Shown one piece after another: positions 1 through 24,782 of a stretch of DNA of 64,000 bases (within the stretch, counting starts at the first letter, position 1; every line of letters starts with the position of its first letter). The notes beneath the pieces are model-generated. The model was not told where the DNA came from and made no database searches. It saw nothing but the letters and a program-made list of their open reading frames with translations. The translations under genes and the position numbers were made by a program. Location of the stretch: positions 35,413 to 99,412 of the forward strand of contig CAYQJQ010000003.1 in the NCBI GenBank assembly GCA_964417975.1. Reading direction: 5' to 3'. Source of the stretch: an uncultured Pseudomonadota bacterium (GTDB lineage Bacteria; Babelota; Babeliae; Babelales; Vermiphilaceae).

Positions 1-798
1 TCACCAGTATATAAAGGTACCCATGCGAATGCTCAAGAAATACTCAAAAATACCCTTCGTGTTGGTCAGGATTATCAAGGTACGCATGATATACCGTCAA
101 TAGCAACAACGCATTTATCGCCCTATTTGAAGTTCGGGCTACTTTCAGTACGTACCGTATGTACAACCATTGCCGCGAAATATGGTATGGCGCACCCATT
201 GATTCGCCAGTTATATTGGCGTGATTTTTTTACCTATGTTGCATTTCACTCGCCACATGTCTTTGGTCATGCCTATCATCAAGAATTTGATGCTCTGGAG
301 TGGGATAATAATCAAGAATACTTTGATCGGTGGTGTTCAGGTACAACCGGGTTTCCCTTGGTGGATGCGGGCATGCGAGAGCTTGCTGCCACTGGACATC
401 TACACAATCGGGTACGCATGGTGGTCGCCTCATTTCTATGTAAAGATCTCCATATTGATTGGCGTTATGGTGAGCGCTATTTTGCACAAAAACTTGTGGA
501 TTATGATCCTGCGGTGAATAATGGTAATTGGCAATGGGTAGCATCAACTGGATGTGATGCGCAGCCGTATTTCAGAATTTTTAATCCATGGTTACAGCAA
601 CGTCGCTTTGATCCTGAGGGTATATATATACGAAAATGGATTCCAGAGCTTGCATCCGTAAGTAACCGCGATCTACATAACTGGCACACTGCCTATGCTA
701 AATATCCGCTAGTGTACCATAAACCCATCTGTTGGCACGAACAGGAACGAAGTAAAACAATGATATATTATAAACAGGCACTCAAAAAAGCAGATTAA
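1..798 (+). CDS. phr: deoxyribodipyrimidine photolyase / cryptochrome family, C-terminal FAD-binding part (5' end lies outside the window)
   Basis: Frame 1 is open from base 1. The translation contains TTHLSPYLKFG, WRDFF, TGFPLVDAGMRELAATGHLHNRVRMVVASFL and NNGNWQWVASTG, which are classic photolyase FAD-domain motifs. Confidence 0.85.
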   Translation, partial: SPVYKGTHANAQEILKNTLRVGQDYQGTHDIPSIATTHLSPYLKFGLLSVRTVCTTIAAKYGMAHPLIRQLYWRDFFTYVAFHSPHVFGHAYHQEFDALEWDNNQEYFDRWCSGTTGFPLVDAGMRELAATGHLHNRVRMVVASFLCKDLHIDWRYGERYFAQKLVDYDPAVNNGNWQWVASTGCDAQPYFRIFNPWLQQRRFDPEGIYIRKWIPELASVSNRDLHNWHTAYAKYPLVYHKPICWHEQERSKTMIYYKQALKKAD

Positions 799-806
799 AG
801 GTTATT

Positions 807-1709
807 ATGATTTTGTGGTTGGCTATCCTGAATTTTCTATTTGCCGTATCGTTCGTTATTGCAAAGATAGGAATTTATTACATCACACCGCTTTATTTTG
901 TTGCGGTTCGTATGATTGTTGCAGCGGCTGTACTGTATGGATACGTAGCGATAACCCGCGTTCGAATGCATATTAAGCTGTCTGATTATCGCGCGATTTT
1001 TTTACTTTCTTTGTTTCATATCTTTATTCCCTATTGCCTAGAATTTTGGGCATTAAAGTATCTTGATTCAACTACCACGTCTTTACTGTACAGTATTACC
1101 CCCTTAATTGCGGCACTTATTGGGTGGACCAAGGGTGTTGAGCGATTTACGGTATTTCATTACAGTGGTATTGGAATTGGTGTATTAGGGTCTTTGTTGT
1201 ACGCGGTGATGTCTGGTGAGACGGTAGGAACGATGAGTAGTAGTATTTATTGGCCTGAATGTGCTCTGTTTATTGCTATTTGGTCATCTGCTTATGGGTG
1301 GTTTTTGCTCAAAGAATTGGTTGTTGAGCGGGGATATTCGGTATTGTTGATTAATAGTATGGCCATGGGAATTGGTGGCATATTGGCGCTTGTAATAGCA
1401 ATAAGTCTCGGGAATCCTTTTTTTACCTGCTCGCCTACCGCAGGATCGGTGCTCAAAGGATTTTCAGCTATGGGGGCACTTATTATAACGGCAAACTGTA
1501 TCTCTTATAATGTATATGGGTACTTATTTAACTATTTTTCGGCTACTTTTATTTCAGCAACCGGTATGGTAATTCCCTTGATTACCGCGCTGTTTGGTTA
1601 CTTGTTCCTTGGTGAAACCATCTCATTACCATTTTTCATATCATTTCTGATTATTATGTGTGGTCTATTATTGTTTTATTACGGAGAACAAAAGAAGAAG
1701 GCCACCTAG
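807..1709 (+). CDS. EamA/DMT-superfamily transporter (about 10 TM helices)
   Basis: A 300-aa, highly hydrophobic ORF with two similar five-helix halves, which is the typical EamA architecture. The substrate cannot be inferred. Confidence 0.65.
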   Translation: MILWLAILNFLFAVSFVIAKIGIYYITPLYFVAVRMIVAAAVLYGYVAITRVRMHIKLSDYRAIFLLSLFHIFIPYCLEFWALKYLDSTTTSLLYSITPLIAALIGWTKGVERFTVFHYSGIGIGVLGSLLYAVMSGETVGTMSSSIYWPECALFIAIWSSAYGWFLLKELVVERGYSVLLINSMAMGIGGILALVIAISLGNPFFTCSPTAGSVLKGFSAMGALIITANCISYNVYGYLFNYFSATFISATGMVIPLITALFGYLFLGETISLPFFISFLIIMCGLLLFYYGEQKKKAT

Positions 1710-1753
1710 CCGCTTAGGTAAGGTAGCCCTTATTCTTTAAAACTAATGGACTA

Positions 1754-2017
1754 CTACCAATTAATGATAGGAGTTACCACTGTTTTTTTTCTTGCCATAG
1801 AACGCTTAGCGGAAGCCTTCTTTGCAACTACACGTTTCTTTGCAGTTGTCTTTTTTGCAGTGGTACGGCGTGCAGTTGTCTTTTTGGCAGCTGTAGTTTT
1901 TCTAGCAGCAGTTTTACGACGAACTGTTTTTTTCTTTGCTGAAGAAGCTACGCGTGAACGTGAGCTCGTCTTTTTAGCAGTCGACTTACGTGCTGCTGGT
2001 TTTCTCTTTACTACCAT
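1754..2017 (-). CDS. small lysine/alanine/threonine-rich basic protein, histone H1-like / Hc1-like nucleoid protein
   Basis: An 87-aa protein made of reiterated AKKTT/ARRTT/AKKK motifs. The ATG at 2017 is preceded on the minus strand by a purine-rich SD (aaaagggggaatac ATG). The + strand ORF 1746..2045 is its low-complexity shadow. Confidence 0.7.
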   Translation of the reverse strand: MVVKRKPAARKSTAKKTSSRSRVASSAKKKTVRRKTAARKTTAAKKTTARRTTAKKTTAKKRVVAKKASAKRSMARKKTVVTPIINW

Positions 2018-2277
2018 GTATTCCCCCTTTTTTTTGGGTTATTAAAACATTTTTGTGCAGTGTTTGTTTTTCATTGGTGAGTCTATCTCTCTGCTCATTT
2101 TTATGATAAAGATGTTGAGATACAAAAAGCAACATTTTCTCTCGTAATGATAAAAAAGTTTATAAGTAAAAGATAAATAATATGCAATGAGCTATGAACA
2201 GTACGCATTTTTAGAAAGCGCACATGGTGAACCGACTACTTATGTTGTTAGAAATATTTTGATGATTGCATGTACTA

Positions 2278-3618
2278 TTACGGAGCAACTGTGATCCTGT
2301 TTTTATGTTTCTTAACCGCCCACGCAAGTATATGTTCATCAACAGTGTTATTGTCAGCTATCAAGGTCTCAGAATATATAGTATCAACAACTTGCTCTAT
2401 CTCTCGGCCCGATATATTAGTAGGCAGTTCGCTGACTAATTGTTTAATACGTGCTGGATTTTTTAAGAGTTCATAATTAATTCTTTTCTCTATTGTGGGA
2501 GGATTGTCGTGTTGTGTAAATAGTATACTATTGCTTTCTTTCAATGAAAATAAACCGCGTGGTAAGCTTACTCGTGGTTCCCCTCGCTTGTAAATAAATT
2601 GATTTTGACCAAAGCGTTTTTTGATATGTATATTAAGGATCTCGTTTTTTTTATCTTCATCGGGCAATGGAAAATGTGTATGAGAAGTAAAACGTGACAA
2701 AACTAACTTATCAAATTTTTTTGGATTATTGGCAGAAAAAATAATTGAATAAGACGAAGAAGGACTTCCTGTCTCGGTTAAAAATTTTGTCATTGCATCC
2801 TTTCTTCCTTTGTCTGATTCATTTTCAATGTCTGTAAAGACTTTATCAGCCTCATCAAATACAATAATAGTGGGTTTTTTAGCAGCAAACGTAAACACTT
2901 TGTCAAATTGTATAGCTGCCTCACCTGTCTTCATATAATAGGATAAATCAGCACCAGAAAAAAATACCACTTGCATACCACAATGCTCAGCAATCAGCTT
3001 TATAGATTCTGTTTTACCGGTTCCTGCTTCACCATAAAAAATAAGGTTTTCGTAATTCGCTCCATGTTCTTTTGCTGCTTCTATTCTTTTAATTATGTGC
3101 TCAAGCTCCTGTTGTGTGCTGAGAGGTAGCGCTAATTTCTTTTTTAATTCCTCAAAGGCCAATTTCGACGAGCCTCCTTTTTTGATAGGTAAGATAGTTT
3201 TCTTGTTTAAGAGTGACGGGGCAGTATAATACTTAAATATTTCTCCCAATAGATACGACCCAAGTATAGCTGCAGGTAGCGCAACTATATTCTGCATTTT
3301 AAGGTGCCATTCAAATTTTTTAGCAGAAATGTGAATACCTTGTAAGGCTTCCACTGACGCTTTAAAATTTGATATCTCGCTAAGTATTTCTTTTGCTTTA
3401 TCGTCAATTGATGAAGTACCCAGTGCAATTTCCTGGATATCTGTTATTACGTTGAAAATTTGCGGGTTATTTTTGACTGCCTGCAGGAGATATGCTAAGC
3501 AAATTAAGGGTTTAAGATTACCCGGTACTCCTTTGTCCGCGGCATTCAGCTGTTGCGGATGTACGAAAAAAAATAGCAGTATGAAAAACAATAGTTTGAA
3601 TGATTTCATCTTAGTCAC
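2278..3618 (-). CDS. membrane-anchored AAA+ ATPase, ATAD3-like
   Basis: Walker A is GEAGTGKT and Walker B is IIVFDEADK. It has an N-terminal signal/anchor ([16 protein letters not shown]), a helical region and a second hydrophobic helix ([18 protein letters not shown]) before the ATPase domain. The C-terminal ISGREIEQ motif and the segment [32 protein letters not shown] resemble ATAD3 as I recall it. The start may be the ATG at 3609 rather than the GTG at 3618. Confidence 0.8.
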   Translation of the reverse strand: [446 protein letters not shown]

Positions 3619-3913
3619 CGAAATAAAAAGAATTTATCGTGTAAGCTTTGTGGAAAAAAATTACAAATAAATTAAAAAATATGCTTCCTTTTTAATTCCT
3701 TATTATTTTACTATATAATTAATTTTTTTCAATATTCAAAATGCTTTATTGGTTTATATTGCATTTTTAAATTTAAGTTATTGGTTATTTTTTACTGCTT
3801 ACTTATAAAAAATGACCTTATTATCACATTCCCACTTTTAACAAATTGGTACACCGCGTATACTGATACCGTAGGGAAACAACGATCTATTTTATAATGA
3901 GTGATCAAATACA

Positions 3914-5335
3914 ATGCAAAAAAAATTACCTGATATTAAGAGTGACTTTGCGCAATGGTACCAAGAGGTTATTTATTCAGCCGAACTGGTTGACCAATCA
4001 CCAGTTCGGGGTACTATGATTATCCGGCCCTATGGCTGTGCCCTGTGGGAACGCATGCAGGCGGTATTGGACGCCCGAATAAAGGCAACCGGTCACCATA
4101 ATGCTATCTTTCCTCTGTTTATTCCAGAATCTTTTTTAAAACGGGAAGCACAACATGTTGAAGGTTTTGCGCCTGAATTAGCAGTAGTTACCCATGCGGG
4201 AGGAAAAGAGCTTGACGAACCATTAGTAGTACGGCCAACCTCAGAAACCATCATTCATTATATGTTTGCACGCTGGATTACCTCGTGGCGTGATTTGCCA
4301 TTAAAAATAAACCAATGGGCCAATGTAGTACGCTGGGAGATGCGCCCCCGGGCTTTTTTGCGTACGACAGAATTTTTCTGGCAAGAAGGCCATACGGCCC
4401 ATGCAACCCACGAAGAAGCGCTTGCCGAAGCTCTGACTATGCTCAATGAATATGTTTTATTTGCCGAACAGTACTTGGCAATTCCAGTGATTACGGGTAG
4501 GAAGACTGATAGCGAAAAATTTCCTGGTGCTCAGATTACCTATACTTTTGAAACATTGATGCAGGATGGTAAAGCCTTGCAAATGGGCACCTCGCACCTG
4601 TTGTCACAATCATTTGCCCATGCATTTGAGATGAAATTTCAGGACGCTGCCGGTGTAGTACAATATCCACATTTGACCAGCTGGGGCGTTACCACGCGCC
4701 TTATTGGTGCATTGGTTATGGTGCATGGCGATCAAAAAGGCCTGATTATGCCTCCACGTATTGCACCTCATCAGGTAGTTATTATACCGATTATGAAAAA
4801 AGGTATTGATGAAGCTCGTATGAAAGAAGCGATTGCCGATGTTAACGATACGCTTACTGCTGCCGGTATTCGGGTAGTCGTTGATGCAAGTACTGACAGT
4901 CCTGGATCTAAATTTTATGCCTGGGAACTGCGCGGCACCCCCGTGCGCATAGAAATAGGTGCACGTGAACTTGAACAGGGTACCATGGTGTTGGTTGATC
5001 GCCTCGGTTTGGTAAAAGAAACTATTGATCGCGATGTTTTAGTACCATTTGTCACGCAGTTACTCGATAAAATACATGCAACATTATTTGCACGTGCTAA
5101 AGAGCGCCTTCTTTCCTTTTGGTACCACGGAGTCAAGTTATCTGAGTTTGGACCACAACTTGAAGAGCATGGCGGTATGTACCAGGTAGGCTGGTGTGGG
5201 AATGCTGCATGTGAAGCAGAATTGAAAAAATACAAAGCATCAAGCCGTTGTATTTTAGAGTCTGTAAGTTCGGTAGATTGTTTTGTGTGCAATAAACCAA
5301 GCACCTGTGATATATTGGTTGCAAAATCATATTGA
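3914..5335 (+). CDS. proS: prolyl-tRNA synthetase, archaeal/eukaryote-like type
   Basis: N-terminus FAQWYQEVIYSAELVDQSPVRGTMIIRPYGCALWE, class II core motifs, a C-terminal Cys-rich domain and a terminal Tyr. At 473 aa it lacks the bacterial-type insertion domain. Confidence 0.9.
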   Translation: MQKKLPDIKSDFAQWYQEVIYSAELVDQSPVRGTMIIRPYGCALWERMQAVLDARIKATGHHNAIFPLFIPESFLKREAQHVEGFAPELAVVTHAGGKELDEPLVVRPTSETIIHYMFARWITSWRDLPLKINQWANVVRWEMRPRAFLRTTEFFWQEGHTAHATHEEALAEALTMLNEYVLFAEQYLAIPVITGRKTDSEKFPGAQITYTFETLMQDGKALQMGTSHLLSQSFAHAFEMKFQDAAGVVQYPHLTSWGVTTRLIGALVMVHGDQKGLIMPPRIAPHQVVIIPIMKKGIDEARMKEAIADVNDTLTAAGIRVVVDASTDSPGSKFYAWELRGTPVRIEIGARELEQGTMVLVDRLGLVKETIDRDVLVPFVTQLLDKIHATLFARAKERLLSFWYHGVKLSEFGPQLEEHGGMYQVGWCGNAACEAELKKYKASSRCILESVSSVDCFVCNKPSTCDILVAKSY

Positions 5336-5364
5336 TCAGAAGTTAATTAAAAAGGGAGGGTAGT

Positions 5365-6294
5365 ATGGAGCTACTTACGTCTGCATCCGTTCGCTTTTTC
5401 AATTATTTATTAACTGAACGGCGCGTTGCGCATAATACGTTTTTAGCGTACAAACTTGATATTGATCAGTTGTCGACCTTTCTAGCAAAACATAAAATTA
5501 CGTGCATAGATGATATTACGCTTGCCCTTCTGAAGCAATATGTAGCTGTACTGCATAAGCGCGGCATTACGCCAAAAAGTATGGTGCGTAAATTATCATC
5601 CATAAAAGGGTTTGTCGGTTATTGTGCACGAACGTATGATATACCAAACGTATCAGCTGGACTTATTTTCCCAAAGGTACCAAAAAGACTCCCCCGTTTT
5701 TTATCGCATGACGAGATCGAAGAACTTTTTGCGGTTGCTGATCAGGCGGATGGTATACATGCATTACGTAATAAGGTTATGCTCTATCTGTTATATGTTA
5801 CGGGTATGCGGGTTAGCGAACTTATTGCATTACGCGTTACTGATTTGCATCCGGATACCAATACGGTGACCGTTTCAGGAAAAGGAGGGAAGCAGCGTCT
5901 TATCCCCGTACCAATGGCCATTATGCAGATGGTACAAACATATACTGCGTCGACTGGACGCATGCAGTTAATAGCGGCGGGAAATGCCAAGAAAAAAAAT
6001 AGGTCATCAGAGTTTTTATTCGTTACTCATTACAAAGACAAGGTGGGAGCAATAACGCGACAGGCATTTTTTGCAATCCTGAACGGATTATGGAAAAAAA
6101 CCGGCAACGATAAAACTATTTCGCCCCATAAATTGCGTCATTCATTTGCAACCCATATGCTGAAAAATGGTGCTCATTTGCGATCATTACAACTTCTTTT
6201 GGGGCATGAAAGTTTATCGACTGTGCAGATATATACCCATATAGATACTAGTTATGCACGTACCCTATACGATAAAAAACATAAACGTTCATAA
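5365..6294 (+). CDS. tyrosine recombinase, XerC/XerD family
   Basis: An N-terminal SAM-like domain is followed by the catalytic motifs RVSELIAL, HKLRHSFATHML and LLGHESLSTVQIYTH. A strong SD (gggaggg) precedes the ATG. Confidence 0.85.
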   Translation: MELLTSASVRFFNYLLTERRVAHNTFLAYKLDIDQLSTFLAKHKITCIDDITLALLKQYVAVLHKRGITPKSMVRKLSSIKGFVGYCARTYDIPNVSAGLIFPKVPKRLPRFLSHDEIEELFAVADQADGIHALRNKVMLYLLYVTGMRVSELIALRVTDLHPDTNTVTVSGKGGKQRLIPVPMAIMQMVQTYTASTGRMQLIAAGNAKKKNRSSEFLFVTHYKDKVGAITRQAFFAILNGLWKKTGNDKTISPHKLRHSFATHMLKNGAHLRSLQLLLGHESLSTVQIYTHIDTSYARTLYDKKHKRS

Positions 6295-6399
6295 CGTAAA
6301 AGTGCTTTATAATAGGTGCATTTTTACCATAATACCGCTATACTTACTCCGATAGTGTTCACTTTCTTCGTAATCGCGTTTTTATACGGATAGATCTCT

Positions 6400-7536
6400 A
6401 TGTACAGTACTTTTATTGTTGAGCAAAAACAGTTGTTTTCTATTTTGTCTTCGATGCAACCTATTTGTACTAAACGTACCACTATGGATAGCACCGCATC
6501 GATTTTATTTCACGTTGGCTTCAAAGAACTGGTATTAAAGAGTACTGATCTGGAGGTCAGTTTACAATCCAATTGCAGCTTGGTAAAAAATACTGGTACA
6601 CATGAATTTGATTTTTTAGTCTCCGGTAAAAGAATCTTTGATTTAGTAAAAGAATTAGAGGGCGATATTACGTGTACAATGAGTAGCACACAACTGCATT
6701 TGTCTGCAAATGATGTACAGGTAAGCTTAAATTTACGCGATGCACAAGATTTTCCAGCATTCCCCGAGCGCATAGAAAACATCATGCAACTTGATGCAAG
6801 TTTACTGATAGAAATGATTAATAAAGTAGCATTTGTGATTCCGCAAAACCATGCAAACGCTGCTCTCAATGGATTGTACTGGGAACTATCGAGTACAGCA
6901 TTGACTATGACAGCCACTGATGGGCATTGCTTAGCGCAAGTTATGTCGCCTATCTGTACACATGATGAACCACGCCGCTGGTTACTACCTCGCCGTGCCA
7001 TTTTTGAATTAAAAAAAATTATTGAGTCACTCAACGGTACATCAACCCTCTTTTTAGGACTGTGTAATAATCAACTCGTTTTTTCTGGTGAATCATTTAA
7101 CTTTTTTACTAAGTTGCTTAATGACTCATTTCCACAATATGCGTCTATTTTAAATAAAGATGGATTTGTCCCTGCAAGACTTGATAGAACGAGGTTTCTC
7201 AAAACCCTACGCCGGTCAACCTGCTTTTTATCTGGTAACTTAGTGCAAGCAACCTCCTTTCATTTTGGTGATCAAAAGCTCAATGTGACTATGGACAATA
7301 AAGAGATTGGTCGACTGGATGAATCTATTTCCTTAGATGCTTATGCAGGCAACCCGTTAACCGTCTATTTTTATGCACCCTATTTATTGAATGGGGTTCC
7401 GGTACTAGGTGGCGACTCAGTGAATTTGTTGCTTAAAAATGGTTCATCACCCGTAATTTTTCAGGATCAAAATGAGCGATTTTCGCTTCTGTACCTTGTT
7501 ATGCCGATAGTACCACAACGCAATGAATGCAGCTAA
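6400..7536 (+). CDS. dnaN: DNA polymerase III beta sliding clamp
   Basis: A 378-aa protein with three-domain clamp length. It contains LLIEMINKVAFVIPQN..NAALNGLYWEL and LTMTATDGHCLA, and the C-terminal YLVMP pattern. recF lies immediately downstream. Confidence 0.85.
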   Translation: MYSTFIVEQKQLFSILSSMQPICTKRTTMDSTASILFHVGFKELVLKSTDLEVSLQSNCSLVKNTGTHEFDFLVSGKRIFDLVKELEGDITCTMSSTQLHLSANDVQVSLNLRDAQDFPAFPERIENIMQLDASLLIEMINKVAFVIPQNHANAALNGLYWELSSTALTMTATDGHCLAQVMSPICTHDEPRRWLLPRRAIFELKKIIESLNGTSTLFLGLCNNQLVFSGESFNFFTKLLNDSFPQYASILNKDGFVPARLDRTRFLKTLRRSTCFLSGNLVQATSFHFGDQKLNVTMDNKEIGRLDESISLDAYAGNPLTVYFYAPYLLNGVPVLGGDSVNLLLKNGSSPVIFQDQNERFSLLYLVMPIVPQRNECS

Positions 7537-8602
7537 TATATGTGTCGCCGAACTGCAGTTAAAAAACATTCGGTGCTTTAAAGATACGCGTATTGTTTTT
7601 CAATCCCCTCTATCAGTTATTATTGGGGCTAATGGTTCAGGAAAAACAAGTATCCTCGAGGCCTTGCATTATGCGTGTTATTTTAGGTCATTTCGTACGC
7701 ATGCTGTACAGGATATGATAGCGCAGGGATCTGATACTTTTTTTTGTTCCCTGTCTTTAGGCTTTAATGGAGTTACCCATATCCTCAATACCGGTTTCTC
7801 AGTCAATAAACGTTTGATTACGTTGGACGGAGCCCCTATCGCCTCCCATAAAAAATTATTGGACTATTATCGGGTTGTTGTTATATCTGAATTTGATTTG
7901 GAGTTAGTGACCGGTGCACCAGAGGGGCGGCGTTCATTTATTGACCATTGCTTGCTTTTGGGGAGTGAGCGAGAGGAGGTCTTTCCTTTATTGAAGCATC
8001 TAAAAAGCATTATTAGTAACCGGATGCATTTGGTTGCAACGCTTGCCGCCGCTAATGATGAATATTGTATATGGACAGAGCGGCTTTTGGGGGTATCTGG
8101 TTGTTTACGTACAGTTCGGATTAGGTATTTAGCACAGCTTGAGGCTATGCTAAATACTATTGGGCCACAGTTTCTGGGGGAGAATATTGCAATTCGCCTT
8201 CATTACCAGCCAAAAGAGTGGAAAGATGATCTAGCGGCACTCTATCGAGCAGAAAAAAAATTAAAACGCTCCATGTGCGGAGCTCATTTAGACGATATCG
8301 TCATTGAATTCAACGGTATGAATGCTAAAAAAAACTGCTCTCGTGGACAACAAAAACTAGTGGCACTGCTATTAAAGGTTGCACACATGAGTCTTGAGCA
8401 AGTTCAGTGTTCAAAGCAGCCCCCATTACTACTGATCGATGATTTTTTCAGTGATTTTGACCCTGTGATACAAAAAAAGGTGCTTTCACTCATTATGGAT
8501 ATGGGTTCTCAGGTTGTGTTGACCGTTCCGGAGCAGGAACAAAACAGTCTCCCTAGCAGCTTGCGTTCCTTTCCTTTTTCGATCATAAATCTTTCTATGT
8601 GA
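7523..8602 (+). CDS. recF: DNA replication and repair protein RecF
   Basis: Walker A is GANGSGKTSILEALHY, the signature is SRGQQKLVALLLKVA and Walker B is LLLIDDFFSDFD. It overlaps the dnaN stop by 14 nt. Confidence 0.85.
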   Translation: MNAANICVAELQLKNIRCFKDTRIVFQSPLSVIIGANGSGKTSILEALHYACYFRSFRTHAVQDMIAQGSDTFFCSLSLGFNGVTHILNTGFSVNKRLITLDGAPIASHKKLLDYYRVVVISEFDLELVTGAPEGRRSFIDHCLLLGSEREEVFPLLKHLKSIISNRMHLVATLAAANDEYCIWTERLLGVSGCLRTVRIRYLAQLEAMLNTIGPQFLGENIAIRLHYQPKEWKDDLAALYRAEKKLKRSMCGAHLDDIVIEFNGMNAKKNCSRGQQKLVALLLKVAHMSLEQVQCSKQPPLLLIDDFFSDFDPVIQKKVLSLIMDMGSQVVLTVPEQEQNSLPSSLRSFPFSIINLSM

Positions 8603-8643
8603 AAGCAAAGGCCTAAAATTAGCCATTTTTTTACTATAAAAGG

Positions 8644-8672
8644 TTGACACCCCGAAAAAAATGGGGTACTAT
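8644..8672 (+). promoter_or_regulatory. near-consensus sigma-70-type promoter (TTGACA, 17-nt spacer, TACTAT)
   Basis: ttgaca at 8644-8649, a 17-nt spacer at 8650-8666 (ccccgaaaaaaatgggg, itself a small palindrome) and tactat at 8667-8672. It lies 42 nt after the recF stop. Confidence 0.5.
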
Positions 8673-8678
8673 TTGAAA

Positions 8679-8807
8679 TGTATTAAGAATACATATTAAA
8701 CAAAGACGTTTTTACAAGTATTCTTAATGTTTAAATTAGGCTTCATTACTACTCTCCTTTTTTCCATCGCATTAGTCAGTTCTGATTGATGCGGTGGAAT
8801 TTTTTTT
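8679..8807 (+). ncRNA. candidate small RNA of about 130 nt, family unknown
   Basis: It runs from the predicted start about 7 nt after the -10 element to the intrinsic terminator. It has an 11-bp hairpin (ATTAAGAATAC 8682-8692 / GTATTCTTAAT 8718-8728), then a single-stranded CU-rich stretch (actactctccttttttcc), then the terminator hairpin. No ORF is present. Confidence 0.4.
8764..8807 (+). terminator. rho-independent terminator
   Basis: The stem is ccatcgca (8764-8771) / tgcggtgg (8790-8797) with one G-U pair, followed by aa and a run of 8 T (8800-8807). Confidence 0.6.
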
Positions 8808-9247
8808 GTAATAACTATTTTCCATAGCCCACCTGTTTTTGACGACTTCTTTAAAATAGTTTTTTCTCAGTTATCTCAATACCCCATTTTCTGTTCCTGT
8901 AAAAATGTCTTCTGATAATTTTTAAGTCATCGGTAAAACAAAAAACACGATCAAGGATCAATTAAGCGCATCTATTTTTTAAATGATCAAGTCAATACAT
9001 GCCAGAATTTTATTTTTCGCCTGAATTTAAATTAACGGCAAATAAACCCAAGCGCTTCTACACTATTTTTTGAGTCATTCCGCTGTCATTTGTCCCGTTA
9101 CAGATATATTGCCCAGCGCAAATGTTTACATAATATCCATTATCGGAACACCCCCTAAAAAACCTTATTTTTACGGGCTTTTTTGGATGGTCACAGATTC
9201 TATTGTTGCGCCATAATTTGCCCCCAGTTTCCTTGTAATCTCAGTCA

Positions 9248-9277
9248 TTGAAGTACTAAAAGCGATTATGATACTAT
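9248..9277 (+). promoter_or_regulatory. possible promoter of the ankyrin gene (TTGAAG, 18-nt spacer, TACTAT)
   Basis: ttgaag at 9248-9253 and tactat at 9272-9277, about 50 nt upstream of the ATG at 9327. The -10 hexamer is the same as in the 8644 promoter. Confidence 0.3.
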
Positions 9278-9326
9278 GAAATAAAGAGGAATTCATCGCA
9301 TAATATAAAAGCAGGATTAAGATAAT

Positions 9327-10346
9327 ATGAAAATAATTAAATATTTAATTACATTGATTCTTTTTTCTTATGTATACCGTACTAAAATAAATGCAGTAGT
9401 CGAATCAGTATGGGAAAAAGAGCCGGTAAAATCTACGGTTGAAAAATTAACACCAGATCCCAAAATGAGTAGGTGCCTGATTAGTGCCAAGAAAAACACA
9501 GACAATCCACTTAAGGGATTGGAGTCCTGTTTTTGGTATGCCATTCGGACTGAAAATAGCGACGCCTTAACCTTGCTGTTAGAAACGGGAGTTGACCCTA
9601 ATATAAGAAATATTACGGGGTACACGGGGTTAATGGTACATGCAGGTGGACCGCATGATAATTCAGCTATAACAGAACTTTTATTAAAGGCTCACGCCGA
9701 TCCTAATAAGCAATCATTGGCCGATGGTACAACAGCGCTTTTACGGGCGGCCGAAAAAGGAAATATTGCTATTGCCCAGGCGTTATTAGAACACAAAGCA
9801 ATGGTTAATCAGCTTGATTATTACGGTAATTCACCATTATTACTGGCAGCGCGAAACGGCAAAACCGAAATGGTGCGTGTGTTGTTGACAAAAGAGCCAC
9901 TCATTAATCATCAGAATCAAACCGGAACGACTCCATTAATGGCTGCGGTAGGCAATGAACATACTGATGTAGTTAAAATCTTATTACAAAATAATGCTAG
10001 TACCATTGTACAAAACCAGGCAGGAGAAACAGCCCTCATGCTTGCTGTTCAAAATGACGACCAAGATACGACTAATGCTATTCTGCAGGTAAATGACGAG
10101 ACGAGAGATGGTATTAACAGTAAAGGAGAAACGGCACTTATTATCGCTGCCCAAAACCAATCATTGCCATTAATCTCCTTGTTGATCAAGGCAAATGCCA
10201 ATCCCTTCATTACGGATGCTTCAGGCAAGGGTGCGCGCGATTATATTGATGATCACGATATATTAAATACATTTGATCAGATGATTACTGCAAACGAGAC
10301 AGTTCATAGAGCGCTATTGAAAAAGAACATAAGTACCCTGCTTTAA
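9327..10346 (+). CDS. secreted ankyrin-repeat protein (about 7 ANK repeats)
   Basis: It has an N-terminal signal peptide (MKIIKYLITLILFSYVYRTKINA). Repeated ANK consensus units include DGTTALLRAAEKGNIAIAQALLEHKAMVN, GNSPLLLAARNGKTEMVRVLL, GTTPLMAAVGNEHTDVVKILLQ and GETALMLAV. Confidence 0.9.
   Translation: MKIIKYLITLILFSYVYRTKINAVVESVWEKEPVKSTVEKLTPDPKMSRCLISAKKNTDNPLKGLESCFWYAIRTENSDALTLLLETGVDPNIRNITGYTGLMVHAGGPHDNSAITELLLKAHADPNKQSLADGTTALLRAAEKGNIAIAQALLEHKAMVNQLDYYGNSPLLLAARNGKTEMVRVLLTKEPLINHQNQTGTTPLMAAVGNEHTDVVKILLQNNASTIVQNQAGETALMLAVQNDDQDTTNAILQVNDETRDGINSKGETALIIAAQNQSLPLISLLIKANANPFITDASGKGARDYIDDHDILNTFDQMITANETVHRALLKKNISTLL
10294..10331 (+). repeat. 38-nt exact repeat, copy 1 (3' end of the ankyrin gene)
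   Basis: acgagacagttcatagagcgctattgaaaaagaacata is identical to 12808-12845. It encodes ETVHRALLKKNI. Confidence 0.95.
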
Positions 10347-10481
10347 AAAAAAGCAAAAATAATGCTTAGTTGAGTAGTAATTTAAAATTTTTGCCTTTAA
10401 TAACCTATTTTAATATGATTATTCTTCTGTTATTATTAATGATAATAATGCAATTTCTATTAAAAGAGTAATTAAAATCAT

Positions 10482-12866
10482 ATGAAACATTCATTTTTGA
10501 GATCTTGGGTTTCTGTATTTCACGCTTTTATTCTCCTGTTGTTTGCCGGAACTATTGAGCAGTCCTATGCTGCTCCTAGAATTAATCTTACCGTGAATAA
10601 TAGAAAAGTAATGCTACCGTTGGGTTTAGCGTTAACCGTGGGTTCTATGAGTTTGCAAAAACTAATAGCTTGTAAAGGTATTATTACGGCAGATAGAGGT
10701 ATTATTACGCCAGAAAAAACAACGCTTAAGACTACCACCAATACGGTTAAAGAGCAGATTAAACCTTCGGAATTTGCAGTTAGGGTAGCAAAAAGATTAG
10801 ATGGAAAAATATTAAAAGTAATAAAAGAAACAGGTATAGATACTGATTTACTCACTACAGAGCTCAGCATCAGTAAAACTGAAATCAATATGGCACTGAC
10901 AAGTTTTTGTAATGGTAATCAAAAAGATAACCCTATCGCGCAGGCAATTAAAAATTTATTGTACAAAAACTTAGACCCTGAATTTCATGCCTATCTCATG
11001 GTTAGCCCGGAGAGCATGTACAAAGTCTATACGAGCCTTTCGCTCGAAGAGAAAAATCAGGTTTTAGCAAATTTCAGTATTGTTCTTAAAGGCGAGGGGG
11101 ACATTGAAACTCCTCGTACCAAATACTCAAAGATCTTATATGAGAAATTAGATTCTCCTGAAGCTTACAAAAAGGCTGACTTATTAAGAAAAGTTTCACA
11201 ACAAAAGGCTGACTTATTAAGAGAAATTTCACAACAACTAGCAACGCAGGTTAATGCTGCTTTAGTTAATTCTAATTTAACGGAGAAACCCCGAGCAATT
11301 AGTTTAAACTCTATATTGAATGAACTCAAAGAAGATTGTGGTTTAAATCAACTATGTGATGAATTACTTACTCGTAACAATCTAAGCGAGGAGGAACGGC
11401 AAAACTTGAAAAAAATAGCCTTACATCATGTGTTATCAAAGTATCTAACGATTCAAAATAGTGATTTATTTACTCCTAAAATTGTTGGCTTATTATTTGA
11501 GTCTCTAGATGATGGAATTAAGGGGAATATATTAACAAAACTCACTAAGGCTTTTAATGCAAAAAATGCCGAAAATCACGAGCAATTAAAGAAGGAGAAG
11601 GAGTCTTATACTAAGATATTTTTACGTTCACTAATGTTTATGAACTGGAATGATCCATGTATTTACCAATTCATTGCATTGAATAGATATGCAACATTAA
11701 AGACAGATCAACAGAAAGAAGTATTACAATCTCTTGTCAATATTTTTACAAATCCTTATACAATGAAGCAAGAAACAACAAAAACGTTTACTGATACCTT
11801 ACGTAAATACCTTTTATTAGATTTTTGTACTGAGAGAGAATTAACTGCTTCTTGGCCAGACAATATATGGCAACACTATAATCTAAACCTACTATCAATA
11901 AATCGTTTGTATTCAACATTGCCTGAGGAAGAAAGAAAAATTCTTGGCGATCTGTTACGTACTATATTCGATCCAAAGTACCCAGATCGGCAAAAAGCCG
12001 CAAAAGAAGCCTATTTAACAGCTTTAAAAGAACGTAATAAAATCTTAACAACAGAACTACTAGATGGAGTATATTACAGTAAATGCGATAAAGTCAGTGC
12101 CGCATTAGAAAAAGGTGCTGATCCATACACTCGAGTGCCGGTCATGTTCAACGGCGCACAAGTTTTTTATCCTATTTTATATAAAATGATTGATACAAAA
12201 AACCAAGAGATGGCTAAGCTTTTATTATCGTATTGGCAAAGTCCAATTCATTATATTGATTTTCCGCCTTTTACAAGTGGAGAGGAAAAACAGCTATTTA
12301 GTTTATTTGATTTTTTAAACGATCCTAGGCATTATACTAGATTCCATCCAGAAACTTCAGATCACATGCAATTACAACAACAGCAAGAGAATCAACAATC
12401 TTTTAAAACAGAACTGTTACAATATTTTGTTGAGGAAGGTCCATTAGAGACTTTGATAAAAAATATAGAAAAAAATGAAAATTTTATAAATGAAGAAAGT
12501 AAAAAGATGCTACTATTAGGGCTAGTAAAATATTCATATAAACATGTTACTGATCAAAATGGTATGACTACCTGCATGTATGATGACTATATTGCTAGAT
12601 TGATAAAAAACCATCCTGAACCCTCAAAAATTCTTTCAGAGTTGTACTCGGCTTTAAAAAAGGATCAGGATAAGGGTAAGAAATTTCCGCGTTGTTGTGA
12701 TCATCGAATGGCAGTAAGCAAATTTAATCCAATTAACATTATCCCTACAGTAACAAATCTAAACGAAGACACATCATCGATTATCACGGAATATGCATTT
12801 GACTTTGACGAGACAGTTCATAGAGCGCTATTGAAAAAGAACATATTTGATATAGTTACTTCTTAA
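10482..12866 (+). CDS. large secreted protein of unknown function with ankyrin-like repeat(s) near the C-terminal third
   Basis: A 794-aa ORF in very AT-rich DNA with a signal peptide (FHAFILLLFAGTIEQSYA). It is helical and K/E/L/N-rich, with an ANK-like segment (LLDGVYYSKCDKVSAALEKGADPYTRVP ... NQEMAKLLLSY). I recognise no catalytic motif. Confidence 0.6.
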   Translation: MKHSFLRSWVSVFHAFILLLFAGTIEQSYAAPRINLTVNNRKVMLPLGLALTVGSMSLQKLIACKGIITADRGIITPEKTTLKTTTNTVKEQIKPSEFAVRVAKRLDGKILKVIKETGIDTDLLTTELSISKTEINMALTSFCNGNQKDNPIAQAIKNLLYKNLDPEFHAYLMVSPESMYKVYTSLSLEEKNQVLANFSIVLKGEGDIETPRTKYSKILYEKLDSPEAYKKADLLRKVSQQKADLLREISQQLATQVNAALVNSNLTEKPRAISLNSILNELKEDCGLNQLCDELLTRNNLSEEERQNLKKIALHHVLSKYLTIQNSDLFTPKIVGLLFESLDDGIKGNILTKLTKAFNAKNAENHEQLKKEKESYTKIFLRSLMFMNWNDPCIYQFIALNRYATLKTDQQKEVLQSLVNIFTNPYTMKQETTKTFTDTLRKYLLLDFCTERELTASWPDNIWQHYNLNLLSINRLYSTLPEEERKILGDLLRTIFDPKYPDRQKAAKEAYLTALKERNKILTTELLDGVYYSKCDKVSAALEKGADPYTRVPVMFNGAQVFYPILYKMIDTKNQEMAKLLLSYWQSPIHYIDFPPFTSGEEKQLFSLFDFLNDPRHYTRFHPETSDHMQLQQQQENQQSFKTELLQYFVEEGPLETLIKNIEKNENFINEESKKMLLLGLVKYSYKHVTDQNGMTTCMYDDYIARLIKNHPEPSKILSELYSALKKDQDKGKKFPRCCDHRMAVSKFNPINIIPTVTNLNEDTSSIITEYAFDFDETVHRALLKKNIFDIVTS
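11172..11237 (+). repeat. in-frame 33-nt tandem duplication (2 copies)
   Basis: aaggctgacttattaagaaaagtttcacaacaa at 11172-11204 and aaggctgacttattaagagaaatttcacaacaa at 11205-11237. They encode KADLLRKVSQQ / KADLLREISQQ. Confidence 0.9.
12808..12845 (+). repeat. 38-nt exact repeat, copy 2 (3' end of the 794-aa gene)
   Basis: Identical to 10294-10331. It encodes ETVHRALLKKNI just before the stop. Confidence 0.95.
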
Positions 12867-12988
12867 AAACAAATGTACTATTCTTTATCTCGTATCTTGA
12901 GTCTCAACAAATAATTATAGATCGAAACACGTATTTCTCAAGTTGGCATTAGGTACATGCCAACACAAATAAAATCTATATACTAAAT

Positions 12989-13846
12989 ATGACAGTATTT
13001 TTATTGTATAGATTTTTTAATATTCGTCCCATCATGACTCTAGTAGTTAATAGTTTGAAAATCAGACAGATACCTATTGCCACGGTAAAAAAAGAGGTAG
13101 TAGTCATTTTTGTGCATGGCTTTGGTGCTAATGGCAGTTGGGTGCACCGCTATGTGTCACGCAATTATCTATTAGCAGATATAGTGTCCTTTTTTGATTT
13201 TTCCGATGCCGTTCACATTCCAGAACAATCATTGGCAAGCATCACCTTATTTTTGCGTTCATGTAAAAACTTGACTAATACCTATCTGGGGCAACAGGAC
13301 GATATTGAACGATTAAAAAATGCGATTCAAGAGGTTATTCAGCGATATCCAGAAGCCATAATTGTATTGTATGGCTTTTCGCGTGGCGCAGCAACCATTA
13401 TTAATACACTTGGCTTGCTTGGCAAAATAAATTCTACACTCTTACCGTATATTAAAGGAGCTATTCTTGAGTCACCTTTTGCGGACATGAATGATATTTT
13501 GGGACATCTCTTGCGCTTTTTGCCCACTGAAACACGTGCCTCATTATTTTATCAAATTTTTAAAAATCATAATCTGCGTGGTGAGCAGCCTATAGATATG
13601 GAAACGTATATTCCAGGCAATATTCCGTTACTCTTCATCTCTTGCCACTACGATTTTCTCGTGCCTCACACCAGTACGGCACGATTGCATCAAAAAATTA
13701 AAGCAACCAGAGGAGTTGAAACCGATCAAACCATCACCCTACATACACAACTTTCTTACGGAGTTCATGCACATATGTTTTGCAATGAATATCAACGTGC
13801 CGTTCATGAGTTTTTTACCTTGGTTCATGCTCTCAATAATCATTAA
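12989..13846 (+). CDS. alpha/beta-fold hydrolase (esterase/lipase-like)
   Basis: It has an HG oxyanion-type motif (VVIFVHGFGANGS) and a nucleophile elbow, GFSRG (GxSxG). A late Asp and His are plausible. The start could instead be the ATG at 13034. Confidence 0.65.
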   Translation: MTVFLLYRFFNIRPIMTLVVNSLKIRQIPIATVKKEVVVIFVHGFGANGSWVHRYVSRNYLLADIVSFFDFSDAVHIPEQSLASITLFLRSCKNLTNTYLGQQDDIERLKNAIQEVIQRYPEAIIVLYGFSRGAATIINTLGLLGKINSTLLPYIKGAILESPFADMNDILGHLLRFLPTETRASLFYQIFKNHNLRGEQPIDMETYIPGNIPLLFISCHYDFLVPHTSTARLHQKIKATRGVETDQTITLHTQLSYGVHAHMFCNEYQRAVHEFFTLVHALNNH

Positions 13847-23045: not shown

Positions 23046-24782
23046 CTAGTAATATTGAGCACCTTTTGCATGTTCGACTAAGACGTTAAATCCGGGAATT
23101 TTTGTAGCTGGTATATATACGGTAGGATCGGTAATTAAAACACATTTTTTAATCCCAATGAGATCTTGCATTAGTTCCTCAATAAATTCGTGAAAATAAT
23201 ACTGAATAGGATAGGGTTCACCTGCAATTTCACGCAGTTTTCTTTTATGACCTTTAAATAATCTATATAGCAACTTTAATTTTTTATTGTTAAGATCTAT
23301 CGACATTTTCAAAGCAACTTGCGAGGTATGAGTAAAGGAAAAAAGAGCTCTTTTTTCTTCTATTAAATCCAATAATATCAGTCGGATTTCCTTAATGATT
23401 TTCCATTGCTGAATGAAACTTTTTTTAAAGGACATCGGCTTTATTTTCACCCAAGTTTTATTCCATTCTATTCCGTTACCATAGGGGAGATCTATAATTT
23501 CTTTAATGGTTTTTGCATCTTTCCTCGTAAGTTCAGCGATACCTAATTTTTTCCATTCTTCAATTAACAGTAAAAATGGAGCTTGTTTAATTGAGACACC
23601 TCTGTCTCTTGTCAGTTCAAAATGAATACGCTGAGCAGTAAAAGGAAGAATTGGTACAATTAATCTTTGTAAGGTTTCCAGTATCAAGCGAGCAACACGC
23701 TGCGCATATATTTTACCCGTATTATTATGTACCTGAAACAACCGTTCTTTAACCGCTGGAAAATAAAAATTATGTAATTCATCGCAATATTCATCGAGTA
23801 AATTGCATACTCCACTGATATCAGATGAATGGTAACAATAAGAAATTCGATGGTTCAACATACAAAGTTGCTGTATAGTATAACACTCTAAAAAACTCAG
23901 AGAGTCATACACAACACCACTCTTTTCTTTAGGATCTAAAGCAGACAAAAGAAATTTTAAAACATCTTGAATTTTATTTAATTTCAAATTCAGTTCATTA
24001 ATATTTTGCATTGAAAACGTTATTTTTCCGTTACCATGATTACTAGCAACCCATAAACGAATTACTTCTGAGCGTAGTTCTGTAAAAAGAGATTTTGGAA
24101 TGACCTCATCCCACGAAGCACGAGATACAACAGTACAATTTTCATCCAATATAGGTCCTATTTTAATAAAATCCTTACTGATTAATCTAAGAAAAAACTC
24201 CTCATGATAATAGTTACATATTGGTTCATCAAGAACTTCAAGGGTGGGATATGATATATTGCTAGAAATAAAATTACTAAGGTTATTTTGCAAAGAAATC
24301 CATTCAGGTAAATGATTTTTGCATGCAGAAAAACAATTTTTGTTTATGGGATACGATATATTACTAATCATTAAATTACCAAGGTTCTTTTGCAAAGCAG
24401 TCCATTTGGGTGAATGATTTTTGCATATGGGATACGATATATTACTAGAAATGAAAATACCAAGTTTTTTTTGCAAAGAAATCCATTCGGGTGAATGATT
24501 TTTGCATACAGAAAAAAAATTATTGTCGATATGATTTTTTATGCAATTAAATCCAGGAGCAAGAGGTAGGTGATATTGAAGCATCCTAGCACAGGTTGCT
24601 ACCATATCATTAAGAATTGCACTATACACATCACCAATGGTAATATCTTTTTCTATGCACGATAAAGGTTCATCAGCAGTAAAAAATGTCCCTTCAGAAG
24701 GCACAGTGCCTATGCAAGAAATCGTGTCATATGCATTCATGGTACCGCACCAAAAATTCTTTATAAAAAACCTAATGTACAA
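23046..24782 (-). CDS. IleRS-derived paralog lacking the HIGH and KMSKS motifs, the editing domain and the zinc finger
   Basis: By-eye alignment to the adjacent ileS product over the N-terminal segment, the KMSKS-flanking segment, the anticodon-binding domain and the C-terminal IPGFNVLVEHA (details in findings). The ORF-track start at 24782 is a TTG; an ATG at 24740 (MNAYDT...) is an alternative. Confidence 0.7.
   Translation of the reverse strand: MYIRFFIKNFWCGTMNAYDTISCIGTVPSEGTFFTADEPLSCIEKDITIGDVYSAILNDMVATCARMLQYHLPLAPGFNCIKNHIDNNFFSVCKNHSPEWISLQKKLGIFISSNISYPICKNHSPKWTALQKNLGNLMISNISYPINKNCFSACKNHLPEWISLQNNLSNFISSNISYPTLEVLDEPICNYYHEEFFLRLISKDFIKIGPILDENCTVVSRASWDEVIPKSLFTELRSEVIRLWVASNHGNGKITFSMQNINELNLKLNKIQDVLKFLLSALDPKEKSGVVYDSLSFLECYTIQQLCMLNHRISYCYHSSDISGVCNLLDEYCDELHNFYFPAVKERLFQVHNNTGKIYAQRVARLILETLQRLIVPILPFTAQRIHFELTRDRGVSIKQAPFLLLIEEWKKLGIAELTRKDAKTIKEIIDLPYGNGIEWNKTWVKIKPMSFKKSFIQQWKIIKEIRLILLDLIEEKRALFSFTHTSQVALKMSIDLNNKKLKLLYRLFKGHKRKLREIAGEPYPIQYYFHEFIEELMQDLIGIKKCVLITDPTVYIPATKIPGFNVLVEHAKGAQYY
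24243..24506 (-). repeat. in-frame triplicated unit of about 81 nt (27 aa) inside the IleRS paralog
   Basis: The units are CKNHSPEWISLQKKLGIFISSNISYPI, CKNHSPKWTALQKNLGNLMISNISYPI and, after the linker NKNCFSA, CKNHLPEWISLQNNLSNFISSNISYPT. At the DNA level each unit ends in ...atgatttttgca on the + strand. Confidence 0.9.

What the first reader, a model, noticed from the sequence alone, without database searches (positions are those of the whole stretch)
10294..12845. Identical 38-nt 3' module gives two adjacent secreted proteins the same C-terminal tail (ETVHRALLKKNI)
acgagacagttcatagagcgctattgaaaaagaacata occurs at 10294-10331 and at 12808-12845, and is 38/38 identical by my reading. In each case it is followed by 5-7 non-identical codons and the stop. 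The two genes, an ankyrin protein and a 794-aa protein, are otherwise unrelated, and the sequence immediately flanking the repeat differs. Perfect nucleotide identity, including synonymous positions, suggests one of three things. It could be recent gene conversion or module shuffling. It could be a nucleic-acid-level function such as an mRNA element or recombination site. Or it could be a strongly constrained C-terminal sorting or secretion tag shared by effector-like proteins.
Basis: seen in the sequence. Interest (0 to 1): 0.65.

Follow-up and report, generated by a model that had tools for sequence, protein, structure and literature searches.

The report
Short DNA patch copied between neighbouring genes
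Two neighbouring genes of an AT-rich bacterium share a perfectly identical 38-base stretch near their ends, and it looks like a recent small copy-and-paste event between them, not a secretion tag or a regulatory element, so it is a minor curiosity.

Summary
The 38-mer occurs exactly twice, at 10294-10331 and 12808-12845, on the same strand and in the same reading frame. It gives an ankyrin-repeat protein (339 aa) and the next gene (794 aa, orphan) the same peptide, (N/D)ETVHRALLKKNI. Identity falls to random level immediately on both sides.

If the codons had been chosen independently for the same peptide, they would match with probability about 1e-5 to 1e-7. The identity therefore reflects recent copying of DNA, not protein-level conservation.

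The only homologue of the 794-aa protein among 5.8 billion proteins ends 26 residues earlier and lacks the tail. In the ankyrin protein the peptide lies inside a long predicted C-terminal helix. So the ankyrin gene is the likelier donor.

I found no other copy in the window or in the genome-representative, metagenome, viral, plasmid or phage collections. There is no RNA structure, no Rfam match, no resemblance to known sorting signals, and no resemblance to dif. A strong dif candidate lies about 1.1 kb upstream of copy 1 (9123-9150), so the gene pair sits next to the apparent replication terminus.

Best reading: a recent short ectopic copy (gene conversion or templated repair) with no demonstrated function. 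The sorting-tag idea is unsupported but not strictly excluded, because the rest of the source genome could not be searched. Interest is low.

The parts
10294..10331 (+). Repeat copy 1. It encodes residues 323-335 (NETVHRALLKKNI) of the ankyrin protein, followed by STLL and the stop.
   Evidence: In the AlphaFold2 model it lies in the distal part of a continuous C-terminal helix, residues 310-338, where pLDDT falls from about 91 to 68.
12808..12845 (+). Repeat copy 2. It encodes residues 776-788 (DETVHRALLKKNI) of the 794-aa protein, followed by FDIVTS and the stop.
   Evidence: It lies inside a 26-residue C-terminal extension that the only homologue, P0002, lacks. Logan contig L004 starts with its last 30 nt.
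9327..10346 (+). Gene 1: ankyrin-repeat protein of 339 aa with a signal-peptide-like N-terminus. It is the probable donor of the patch.
   Evidence: Pfam Ank_2 1.9e-37 and Ank 8.4e-36. AlphaFold2 mean pLDDT 92 with an ANK solenoid. No close orthologue: the best hit is 28% identical.
10482..12866 (+). Gene 2: orphan 794-aa, mostly helical protein with a signal-peptide-like N-terminus. It is the probable recipient of the patch.
   Evidence: No Pfam family. No PDB relative. One homologue, P0002, at 37-45% identity, whose sequence ends at the position aligned to residue 768. The AlphaFold2 model is uninformative at pLDDT 39.5.
9123..9150 (-). Context only: candidate chromosome dimer resolution site dif, TGTTCCGATAATGGATATTATGTAAACA, 177 nt upstream of gene 1.
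   Evidence: It is the only match in the window to a dif consensus at up to 3 mismatches, with 0.01 expected. It matches B. subtilis dif at 21/28 and E. coli dif at 20/28 (published dif sequences checked in PMC3025954). The GC3-skew sign switch lies near 12.9 kb.

Best explanation
A recent, short, non-reciprocal copying event placed a 38-nt piece of one gene's 3' end into the 3' end of its neighbour 2.5 kb away. The mechanism would be ectopic gene conversion or a templated patch laid down during repair or replication. The more likely direction is from the ankyrin gene, where the peptide is part of the C-terminal helix, into the downstream orphan gene. The patch landed in frame close to the stop codon, where a change is easily tolerated, so both ORFs stayed intact and now end with the same 12-13 residues.

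Shown: the identity is at DNA level, is sharply bounded, and is limited to these two adjacent genes in everything that could be searched. The tail is missing from the only homologue of the recipient.

Inferred: the direction, the mechanism, and that the shared tail has no dedicated function.

One side effect follows. Two 38-bp direct repeats now lie within the range of identity that supports RecA-type recombination in E. coli (23-90 bp, PMC3758752). They could therefore mediate loss of the 2,514-bp segment that carries gene 2.
For: - Exact 38/38 identity, two copies only, 0 expected.
- Given the same peptide, independent codon choice would reproduce the same codons with probability 9.5e-8, or 7e-6 for any identical choice. 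Seven of the 12 codons are minor ones with usage 10-27%.
- Flanks are at random identity, 27-37%.
- The proteins are otherwise unrelated.
- Gene 2's only homologue in 5.8 billion proteins stops at the residue aligned to I768, 26 residues before gene 2's end, so the tail is an addition in gene 2.
- The marginal upstream similarity between the two genes begins in gene 2 at S766-I768, just where the P0002 homology ends.
- In gene 1 the peptide lies in a helix that begins in the last ANK repeat. Its best internal matches are in register with ANK second helices: TDVVKILLQNNA, EMVRVLLTKEPL, SAITELLLKAHA.
- The repeat is real in independent read data.
- The pair lies in an AT-richer stretch (GC 0.30-0.35 against about 0.40 around it) next to a dif candidate and a skew switch. 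By analogy with E. coli, such a terminus region is prone to breakage and recombination (PMC5862497, abstract only).
Against: - Classical gene conversion needs flanking homology, and essentially none is present. The upstream alignment is only marginal at p about 0.03, and there is nothing downstream. The mechanism is therefore not ordinary homologous conversion and remains a guess.
- Direction rests on a single homologue, whose genome of origin is unknown, and on a helix predicted with only moderate confidence at the patch (pLDDT 68-81).
- The resemblance of the tail to ANK helix 2 is not significant against shuffles (946 of 2000).
- Both genes kept intact ORFs and both have signal-peptide-like N-termini, which would also fit selection for a shared tail.
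- The rest of the genome could not be searched for further copies.
Confidence: 0.6

Rival explanations
1. The peptide is a portable functional C-terminal module that has recently spread between effector-like secreted proteins and is kept by selection. It could be a sorting, secretion or host-interaction helix.
For: - Both proteins have signal-peptide-like N-termini and are adjacent.
- The patch is in frame in both, and both ORFs are intact.
- Ankyrin proteins with signal peptides are regarded as secreted effectors in intracellular bacteria such as Chromulinavorax (PMC6561590).
- The peptide is predicted helical in gene 1.
Against: - Only two carriers are known. No similar tail occurs in any other ORF of the window.
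- No carrier occurs in the genome, metagenome or viral DNA scans or in 1.84 billion representative proteins at E<=0.001. A bare 12-mer would have scored E about 0.1 and been missed.
- The homologue P0002 lacks the tail.
- The distance to the C-terminus differs (4 versus 6 residues).
- There is no transmembrane or hydrophobic segment, and Pfam finds no sorting domain.
- Nucleotide identity shows recent copying, not long-term constraint.
Confidence: 0.15
2. The 38-mer acts at DNA or RNA level and is conserved as nucleotides. It could be a recombination (att-like) site that brackets gene 2 as a 2.5-kb cassette, or a binding site for a protein or small RNA.
For: - Perfect identity at synonymous sites, with minor codons.
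- Direct repeats bracket a single-gene segment.
- A Xer-type tyrosine recombinase gene lies at 5365..6294, and a dif candidate at 9123-9150 is nearby.
- The 38-mer contains an imperfect palindrome, TTCATAGAGCGCTATTGAA (read from the sequence).
Against: - The 38-mer matches the dif consensus at only 16/27, which is background level. No second dif-like site flanks the genes: all other sites are at most 18/28, as elsewhere in the window.
- No integrase or transposase was seen among the ORFs annotated between 0 and 44 kb other than the Xer homologue.
- RNA folding z-scores are -0.39, -0.38, +0.65 and +0.69.
- There is no Rfam hit at E<=1 and no promoter or terminator pattern in the repeat.
- There are no copies elsewhere.
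Confidence: 0.1
3. The two tails are old homologues: both genes inherited a common C-terminal segment of about 30 codons. The 38-nt core was later homogenised by conversion, while the rest diverged.
For: - A gapped upstream alignment includes a shared CATTTGA heptamer coding for (T/A)FD, and 58 of 2000 shuffles score as well.
- MAFFT aligns I..FD..(N/D)ETVHRALLKKNI.
Against: - The upstream similarity is marginal, and part of it is in different reading frames.
- There is no downstream similarity.
- P0002 lacks the whole segment.
- A perfect 38-nt run inside flanks of 30-40% divergence would still need a recent event.
Confidence: 0.1

Closest known systems
Ectopic (interlocus) gene conversion or short segmental duplication between nearby genes in bacteria
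   Same: There is non-reciprocal identity at nucleotide level over a short tract with sharp ends. The two copies are 2.5 kb apart on the same strand. The resulting direct repeats are long enough (38 bp) to fall in the 23-90 bp range needed for recombination in E. coli (PMC3758752).
   Different: Textbook conversion acts between paralogues that already share flanking homology. Here the two genes are unrelated and the flanks are at random identity. A homology-independent route, such as template switching or a templated repair patch, has to be assumed.
C-terminal protein sorting or secretion signals (LPXTG, PEP-CTERM, T9SS C-terminal domain, C-terminal signals of type IV secretion substrates). 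The comparison is from general knowledge.
   Same: A shared short sequence lies near the C-terminus of proteins that look like exported or effector proteins.
   Different: Known signals recur in many proteins of a genome, are conserved as protein rather than as DNA, sit at a fixed distance from the end, and mostly include a hydrophobic segment or a folded domain. None of this holds here.
Elements integrated at dif by Xer recombinases (IMEX), e.g. Legionella LME-1 (PMC9765430)
   Same: The gene pair lies directly beside a dif candidate at the apparent terminus and is bracketed in part by direct repeats. A Xer-type recombinase gene is nearby.
   Different: The repeats are not dif-like. No dif mimic flanks the segment. 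The repeats lie inside coding sequence.

Membership tests
Ectopic gene conversion / short copied patch | Identity at nucleotide level beyond what the shared protein sequence would give | tested here: met
   The probability of identical codons given the same peptide is 9.5e-8 to 7e-6.
Ectopic gene conversion / short copied patch | Discrete tract with sharp boundaries | tested here: met
   38/38 identity, then 27-37% identity in the 30-120 nt on either side.
Ectopic gene conversion / short copied patch | Flanking homology between donor and recipient to start homologous recombination | tested here: inconclusive
   The upstream gapped alignment is matched by 58 of 2000 shuffles and the downstream one by 594 of 2000. 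The proteins are otherwise unrelated.
Ectopic gene conversion / short copied patch | Polarity shown by an outgroup that lacks the tract | tested here: inconclusive
   The only homologue of gene 2 (P0002) ends 26 residues earlier. Gene 1 has no orthologue. The DNA and genome of P0002 could not be obtained.
C-terminal sorting/secretion signal | Recurs at the C-termini of many proteins of the same genome | tested here: inconclusive
   Only the two adjacent genes carry it in the 64-kb window. The rest of the genome was not available. The profile search of 1.84 billion proteins found no other carrier at E<=0.001 but could not see a bare 12-mer.
C-terminal sorting/secretion signal | Conserved in relatives as protein, with synonymous variation | tested here: not met
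   The homologue P0002 lacks it. The two copies show no synonymous difference. There are no matches to the back-translated peptide in the genome, metagenome or viral collections.
C-terminal sorting/secretion signal | Match to a described signal domain or motif | tested here: not met
   Pfam gives only Ank families for gene 1 and nothing for gene 2. Read by eye, there is no hydrophobic segment, LPXTG or CaaX motif.
dif / Xer recombination site | 28-bp site with two 11-bp arms resembling known dif sequences | tested here: not met
   The best match touching the repeat is 16/27 to the consensus and 13-14/28 to E. coli and B. subtilis dif. The real candidate at 9123-9150 scores 25/27.
Structured RNA element | Stable structure beyond shuffled controls, or a match to a described family | tested here: not met
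   z-scores are -0.39, -0.38, +0.65 and +0.69. There is no Rfam match at the gathering score or at E<=1.
Dispersed repeat (REP/MITE-like) | Many copies, mostly non-coding, often with inverted ends | tested here: not met
   There are two copies, both coding, and no degenerate copies in the window. None occur in the plasmid or phage collections.

The most novel reading that the evidence does not exclude
The 38-mer is a dedicated exchange site or portable tail module of an uncultured host-associated bacterium. One form would be a recombination core that lets single-gene cassettes such as gene 2 enter and leave the 3' end of an effector gene beside dif. The other would be a new C-terminal helix tag that marks a small set of exported effectors.
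Probability: 0.06. Interest if true: 0.6.

Novelty: new member of a known kind. Interest (0 to 1): 0.22.

Why it matters
If it is only a copied patch, it matters little. It is a clean small example of how unrelated neighbouring genes can acquire identical ends without flanking homology, in an accessory stretch next to the replication terminus. It also creates a potential deletion substrate. It would matter more only if further copies turned up in the full genome, because that would point to a new effector tag or cassette site in a poorly known bacterial lineage.

Tried and rejected
- **dif site or IMEX boundary.** Rejected. The repeat does not resemble dif. A much better dif candidate lies at 9123-9150, and no second dif-like site exists nearby.
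- **mRNA structure, small RNA or terminator.** Rejected on folding z-scores, Rfam and pattern scans.
- **Dispersed repeat.** Rejected: two copies only.
- **Assembly artefact.** Rejected. An independent Logan contig breaks exactly k-1 = 30 nt into copy 2 (k = 31 for Logan is my recollection).
- **Diversity-generating retroelement (template/variable repeat).** Considered and dropped. The copies are identical, with no adenine-specific differences, and no reverse transcriptase was seen among the annotated ORFs.
- **PRANC/F-box or CaaX tails of ankyrin effectors.** No Pfam hit and no such motif.
- **'In-frame excision' of 42 nt from gene 2.** Removing the 38-mer plus a flanking TTTG leaves ...AFDFDIVTS*. 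This is trivial, because the patch is in frame in both genes. Only the 4-5-nt TTTGA microrepeat remains as a weak hint.

Searches that led nowhere:
- The word-indexed protein search with the tail failed even to return the two window proteins.
- Genome and viral scans for gene 2 relatives found nothing.
- The metagenome scan gave one chance hit (TVHRALFKKN) in a contig without long ORFs.
- Exact-protein look-ups for gene 1, gene 2, P0002, RuvC and DnaB found nothing.
- The run accessions were not found in papers.
- The gene 2 structure model was too poor to use, and no PDB relative was found.
- The organism could not be identified. The housekeeping genes score weakly against NCBIfam models, which suggests a divergent, possibly host-associated lineage, but this is not established.
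Full report
**Observation**

The 38-mer ACGAGACAGTTCATAGAGCGCTATTGAAAAAGAACATA is present at 10294-10331 and 12808-12845 on the + strand. No third copy appears at up to 3 mismatches, and none of 100 dinucleotide-preserving shuffles gave two matches. The repeat finder lists it as the only long perfect repeat in the window.

Both copies lie in the same reading frame near the 3' ends of two adjacent co-directional ORFs.
- Gene 1 is 9327..10346, 339 aa, ending ...QMITANETVHRALLKKNISTLL*.
- Gene 2 is 10482..12866, 794 aa, ending ...AFDFDETVHRALLKKNIFDIVTS*.

Gene 1 matches the Pfam ankyrin families strongly. Gene 2 matches nothing. BLASTP between the two proteins finds only the 13-residue match. 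Identity in the 30-120 nt on either side is 27-37%, which is random level.

An independent assembly supports the repeat. Logan contig L004, from run SRR10912418, carries the exact downstream hydrolase gene and starts with exactly the last 30 nt of copy 2. A k=31 graph (my recollection of how Logan assemblies are built) breaks at that point when a sequence has more than one context.

**DNA-level or protein-level identity**

I used codon usage from 37 ORFs of the window. The chance that a second, independently encoded ETVHRALLKKNI would use the same 12 codons is 9.5e-8, or 7e-6 for any identical choice. Seven of the twelve codons are minor ones: GAG, ACA, AGA, GCG, CTA, AAG and AAC, at 10-27% usage. 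Protein-level constraint alone cannot explain the identity. Either the DNA was copied recently or the nucleotides themselves are constrained.

**Tests of a nucleotide-level function**
- The 38-mer alone, each copy with 30-nt flanks, and the reverse strand fold no better than shuffles, with z from -0.39 to +0.69.
- Rfam gives nothing in 8500-13100 even at E<=1.
- No promoter-like or terminator-like pattern falls in the repeat.

Direct repeats that bracket a one-gene segment suggested an attachment site, and a Xer-type recombinase gene lies at 5365..6294. I therefore tested resemblance to dif.
- The repeat scores 16/27 against a dif consensus recalled from memory, and 13-14/28 against the E. coli and B. 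subtilis sites. That is background level.
- A site at 9123-9150 (- strand), TGTTCCGATAATGGATATTATGTAAACA, scores 25/27, against a next best of 21. It matches B. subtilis dif at 21/28 and E. coli dif at 20/28. It is the only match in the window at up to 3 mismatches, with 0.01 expected. I checked the published dif sequences used for comparison in PMC3025954.
- No second dif-like site flanks the gene pair.

The repeat is therefore not a Xer site, and there is no sign of an element integrated at dif.

**Tests of a sorting tag**
- No other six-frame ORF of the window resembles the tail, by identity scan or by a profile HMM.
- The back-translated 12-mer has no match in one genome for each of 185,579 species.
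- The back-translated 10-mer has none in IMG/VR. It has one in the JGI metagenomes, which reads TVHRALFKKN in a contig without long ORFs and is a chance hit.
- blastn against plasmids and phages found nothing.
- A profile of the two tails searched against 1.84 billion representative proteins returned only the two window proteins and an unrelated repeat protein that matches the flank, not the motif.

A calibration qualifies that last result. A protein carrying only the bare 12-mer would score E about 0.1, and one carrying the 13-mer would score 0.0014. Both fall outside the E<=0.001 range that the search listed. Isolated copies are therefore not excluded.

The tail has no hydrophobic segment and no described signal domain, and it sits at different distances from the two C-termini.

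**Direction of transfer**

Gene 2 has a single homologue among 5.8 billion proteins: P0002, 740 aa, 37-45% identical. Their alignment runs to the very end of P0002 (...ESVSAII), opposite gene 2 residues ...EDTSSII(768). Gene 2 then continues for 26 residues that contain the repeat. The tail is thus an addition in gene 2, or a loss in P0002.

The only upstream similarity between the two genes is marginal (58 of 2000 shuffles score as well). It starts in gene 2 at S766-I768, the point where the homology to P0002 ends.

Gene 1 has no close relative. Its AlphaFold2 model has mean pLDDT 92. It shows an ANK solenoid whose last repeat runs into one long C-terminal helix, residues 310-338, and this helix contains the shared peptide at pLDDT about 81 falling to 68. 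The peptide's best ungapped matches in the body of gene 1 are in register with the second helices of its ANK repeats. This is not significant against shuffles.

Together this favours the ankyrin gene as donor, with moderate confidence.

**Context**

GC3 skew on the + strand is mostly positive for genes from 127 to 12866 and negative for nearly every gene (one small ORF excepted) from 12989 to 64000, whatever their orientation. With the dif candidate at 9.1 kb, this indicates that the window spans the replication terminus and that the two genes lie right beside it. Gene 2 is also AT-richer (GC 0.30-0.35) than its surroundings (about 0.40).

In E. coli the terminus region is prone to breakage (PMC5862497; I read the abstract only). 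That would fit a repair-associated copying event, but it is an analogy, not evidence.

**Mechanism and consequences**

The best-supported account is a recent short ectopic copy of part of the ankyrin gene's last helix-coding segment into the end of the neighbouring gene. It was tolerated because it lies in frame within the last few dozen codons. Ordinary homologous conversion is not a good fit, because flanking homology is lacking. Template switching or a templated repair patch is my inference. A TTTGA microrepeat flanks the patch in gene 2 (read from the sequence), which is a weak hint.

The two 38-bp direct repeats now fall within the 23-90 bp of identity reported to support recombination in E. 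coli (PMC3758752). Deletion of the 2,514-bp interval is a plausible future outcome. It would fuse the ankyrin body to the FDIVTS end.

**Limits**
- The source genome, apart from this window, and the genome of P0002 were not retrievable. Copy number in the whole genome is therefore unknown.
- P0002 may be a paralogue from the same assembly. It is from NCBI but absent from both the genome collection and the gene-position index, as are the window's own genes. This is only an inference.
- The organism was not identified.

**Verdict**

The repeat is real. Its most likely meaning is an ordinary recent micro-duplication or conversion between neighbours. The sorting-tag and nucleic-acid-element readings are unsupported. 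Interest is low.

Noticed in passing
window 9123-9150 (- strand), with 5365..6294 (+) and the skew switch near 12.9 kb: There is a strong candidate dif site, TGTTCCGATAATGGATATTATGTAAACA, in the recF-ANK spacer. A XerC/D-type recombinase gene lies 3 kb upstream. GC3 skew changes sign, independently of gene orientation, between 12866 and 12989. The window therefore appears to span the replication terminus even though it carries dnaN, recF and dnaB. The two genes right of dif (9327-12866) still carry the skew of the left replichore, which could mean recent insertion or inversion.
   Followed up: partly
window 8644-8808 (+): A candidate small RNA lies downstream of recF. It has a promoter-like TTGACA-17-TACTAT at 8644-8672 and two long hairpins. 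The second hairpin (8762-8799, 17 bp) is followed by T8, like an intrinsic terminator. The 133-nt fold has z = -5.9, and there is no Rfam match. Logan contig L002 ends at about the start of the second hairpin.
   Followed up: partly
window 10713-10829 (gene 2 residues 78-116) versus P0002: A 39-residue block, EKTTLKTTTNTVKEQIKPSEFAVRVAKRLDGKILKVIKE, is 100% identical between gene 2 and its only homologue, although the proteins are otherwise about 40% identical. It is either a very strongly constrained motif or another conversion patch, if P0002 is a paralogue in the same genome. The DNA of P0002 was not obtainable.
   Followed up: partly
window 11170-11235: There is a 33-nt tandem duplication inside gene 2, 94% identical, giving KADLLRKVSQQ / KADLLREISQQ. 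P0002 has a 12-residue gap at this place in the alignment, so it carries a single copy.
   Followed up: no
window 23046..24782 (-), repeats 24245-24535: A 578-aa ORF lies next to ileS. It has a stretch resembling the C-terminal part of isoleucine--tRNA ligase (TIGR00392, 5e-20, residues 203-403) and a set of 81-108-nt tandem repeats near its 5' end. It may be a duplicated and diverged ileS fragment.
   Followed up: no
window 127..798 (+): This ORF matches only the C-terminal 200 positions of deoxyribodipyrimidine photolyase (profile positions 273-471 of 472). It is either a truncated gene or one whose start was missed by the ORF listing.
   Followed up: no
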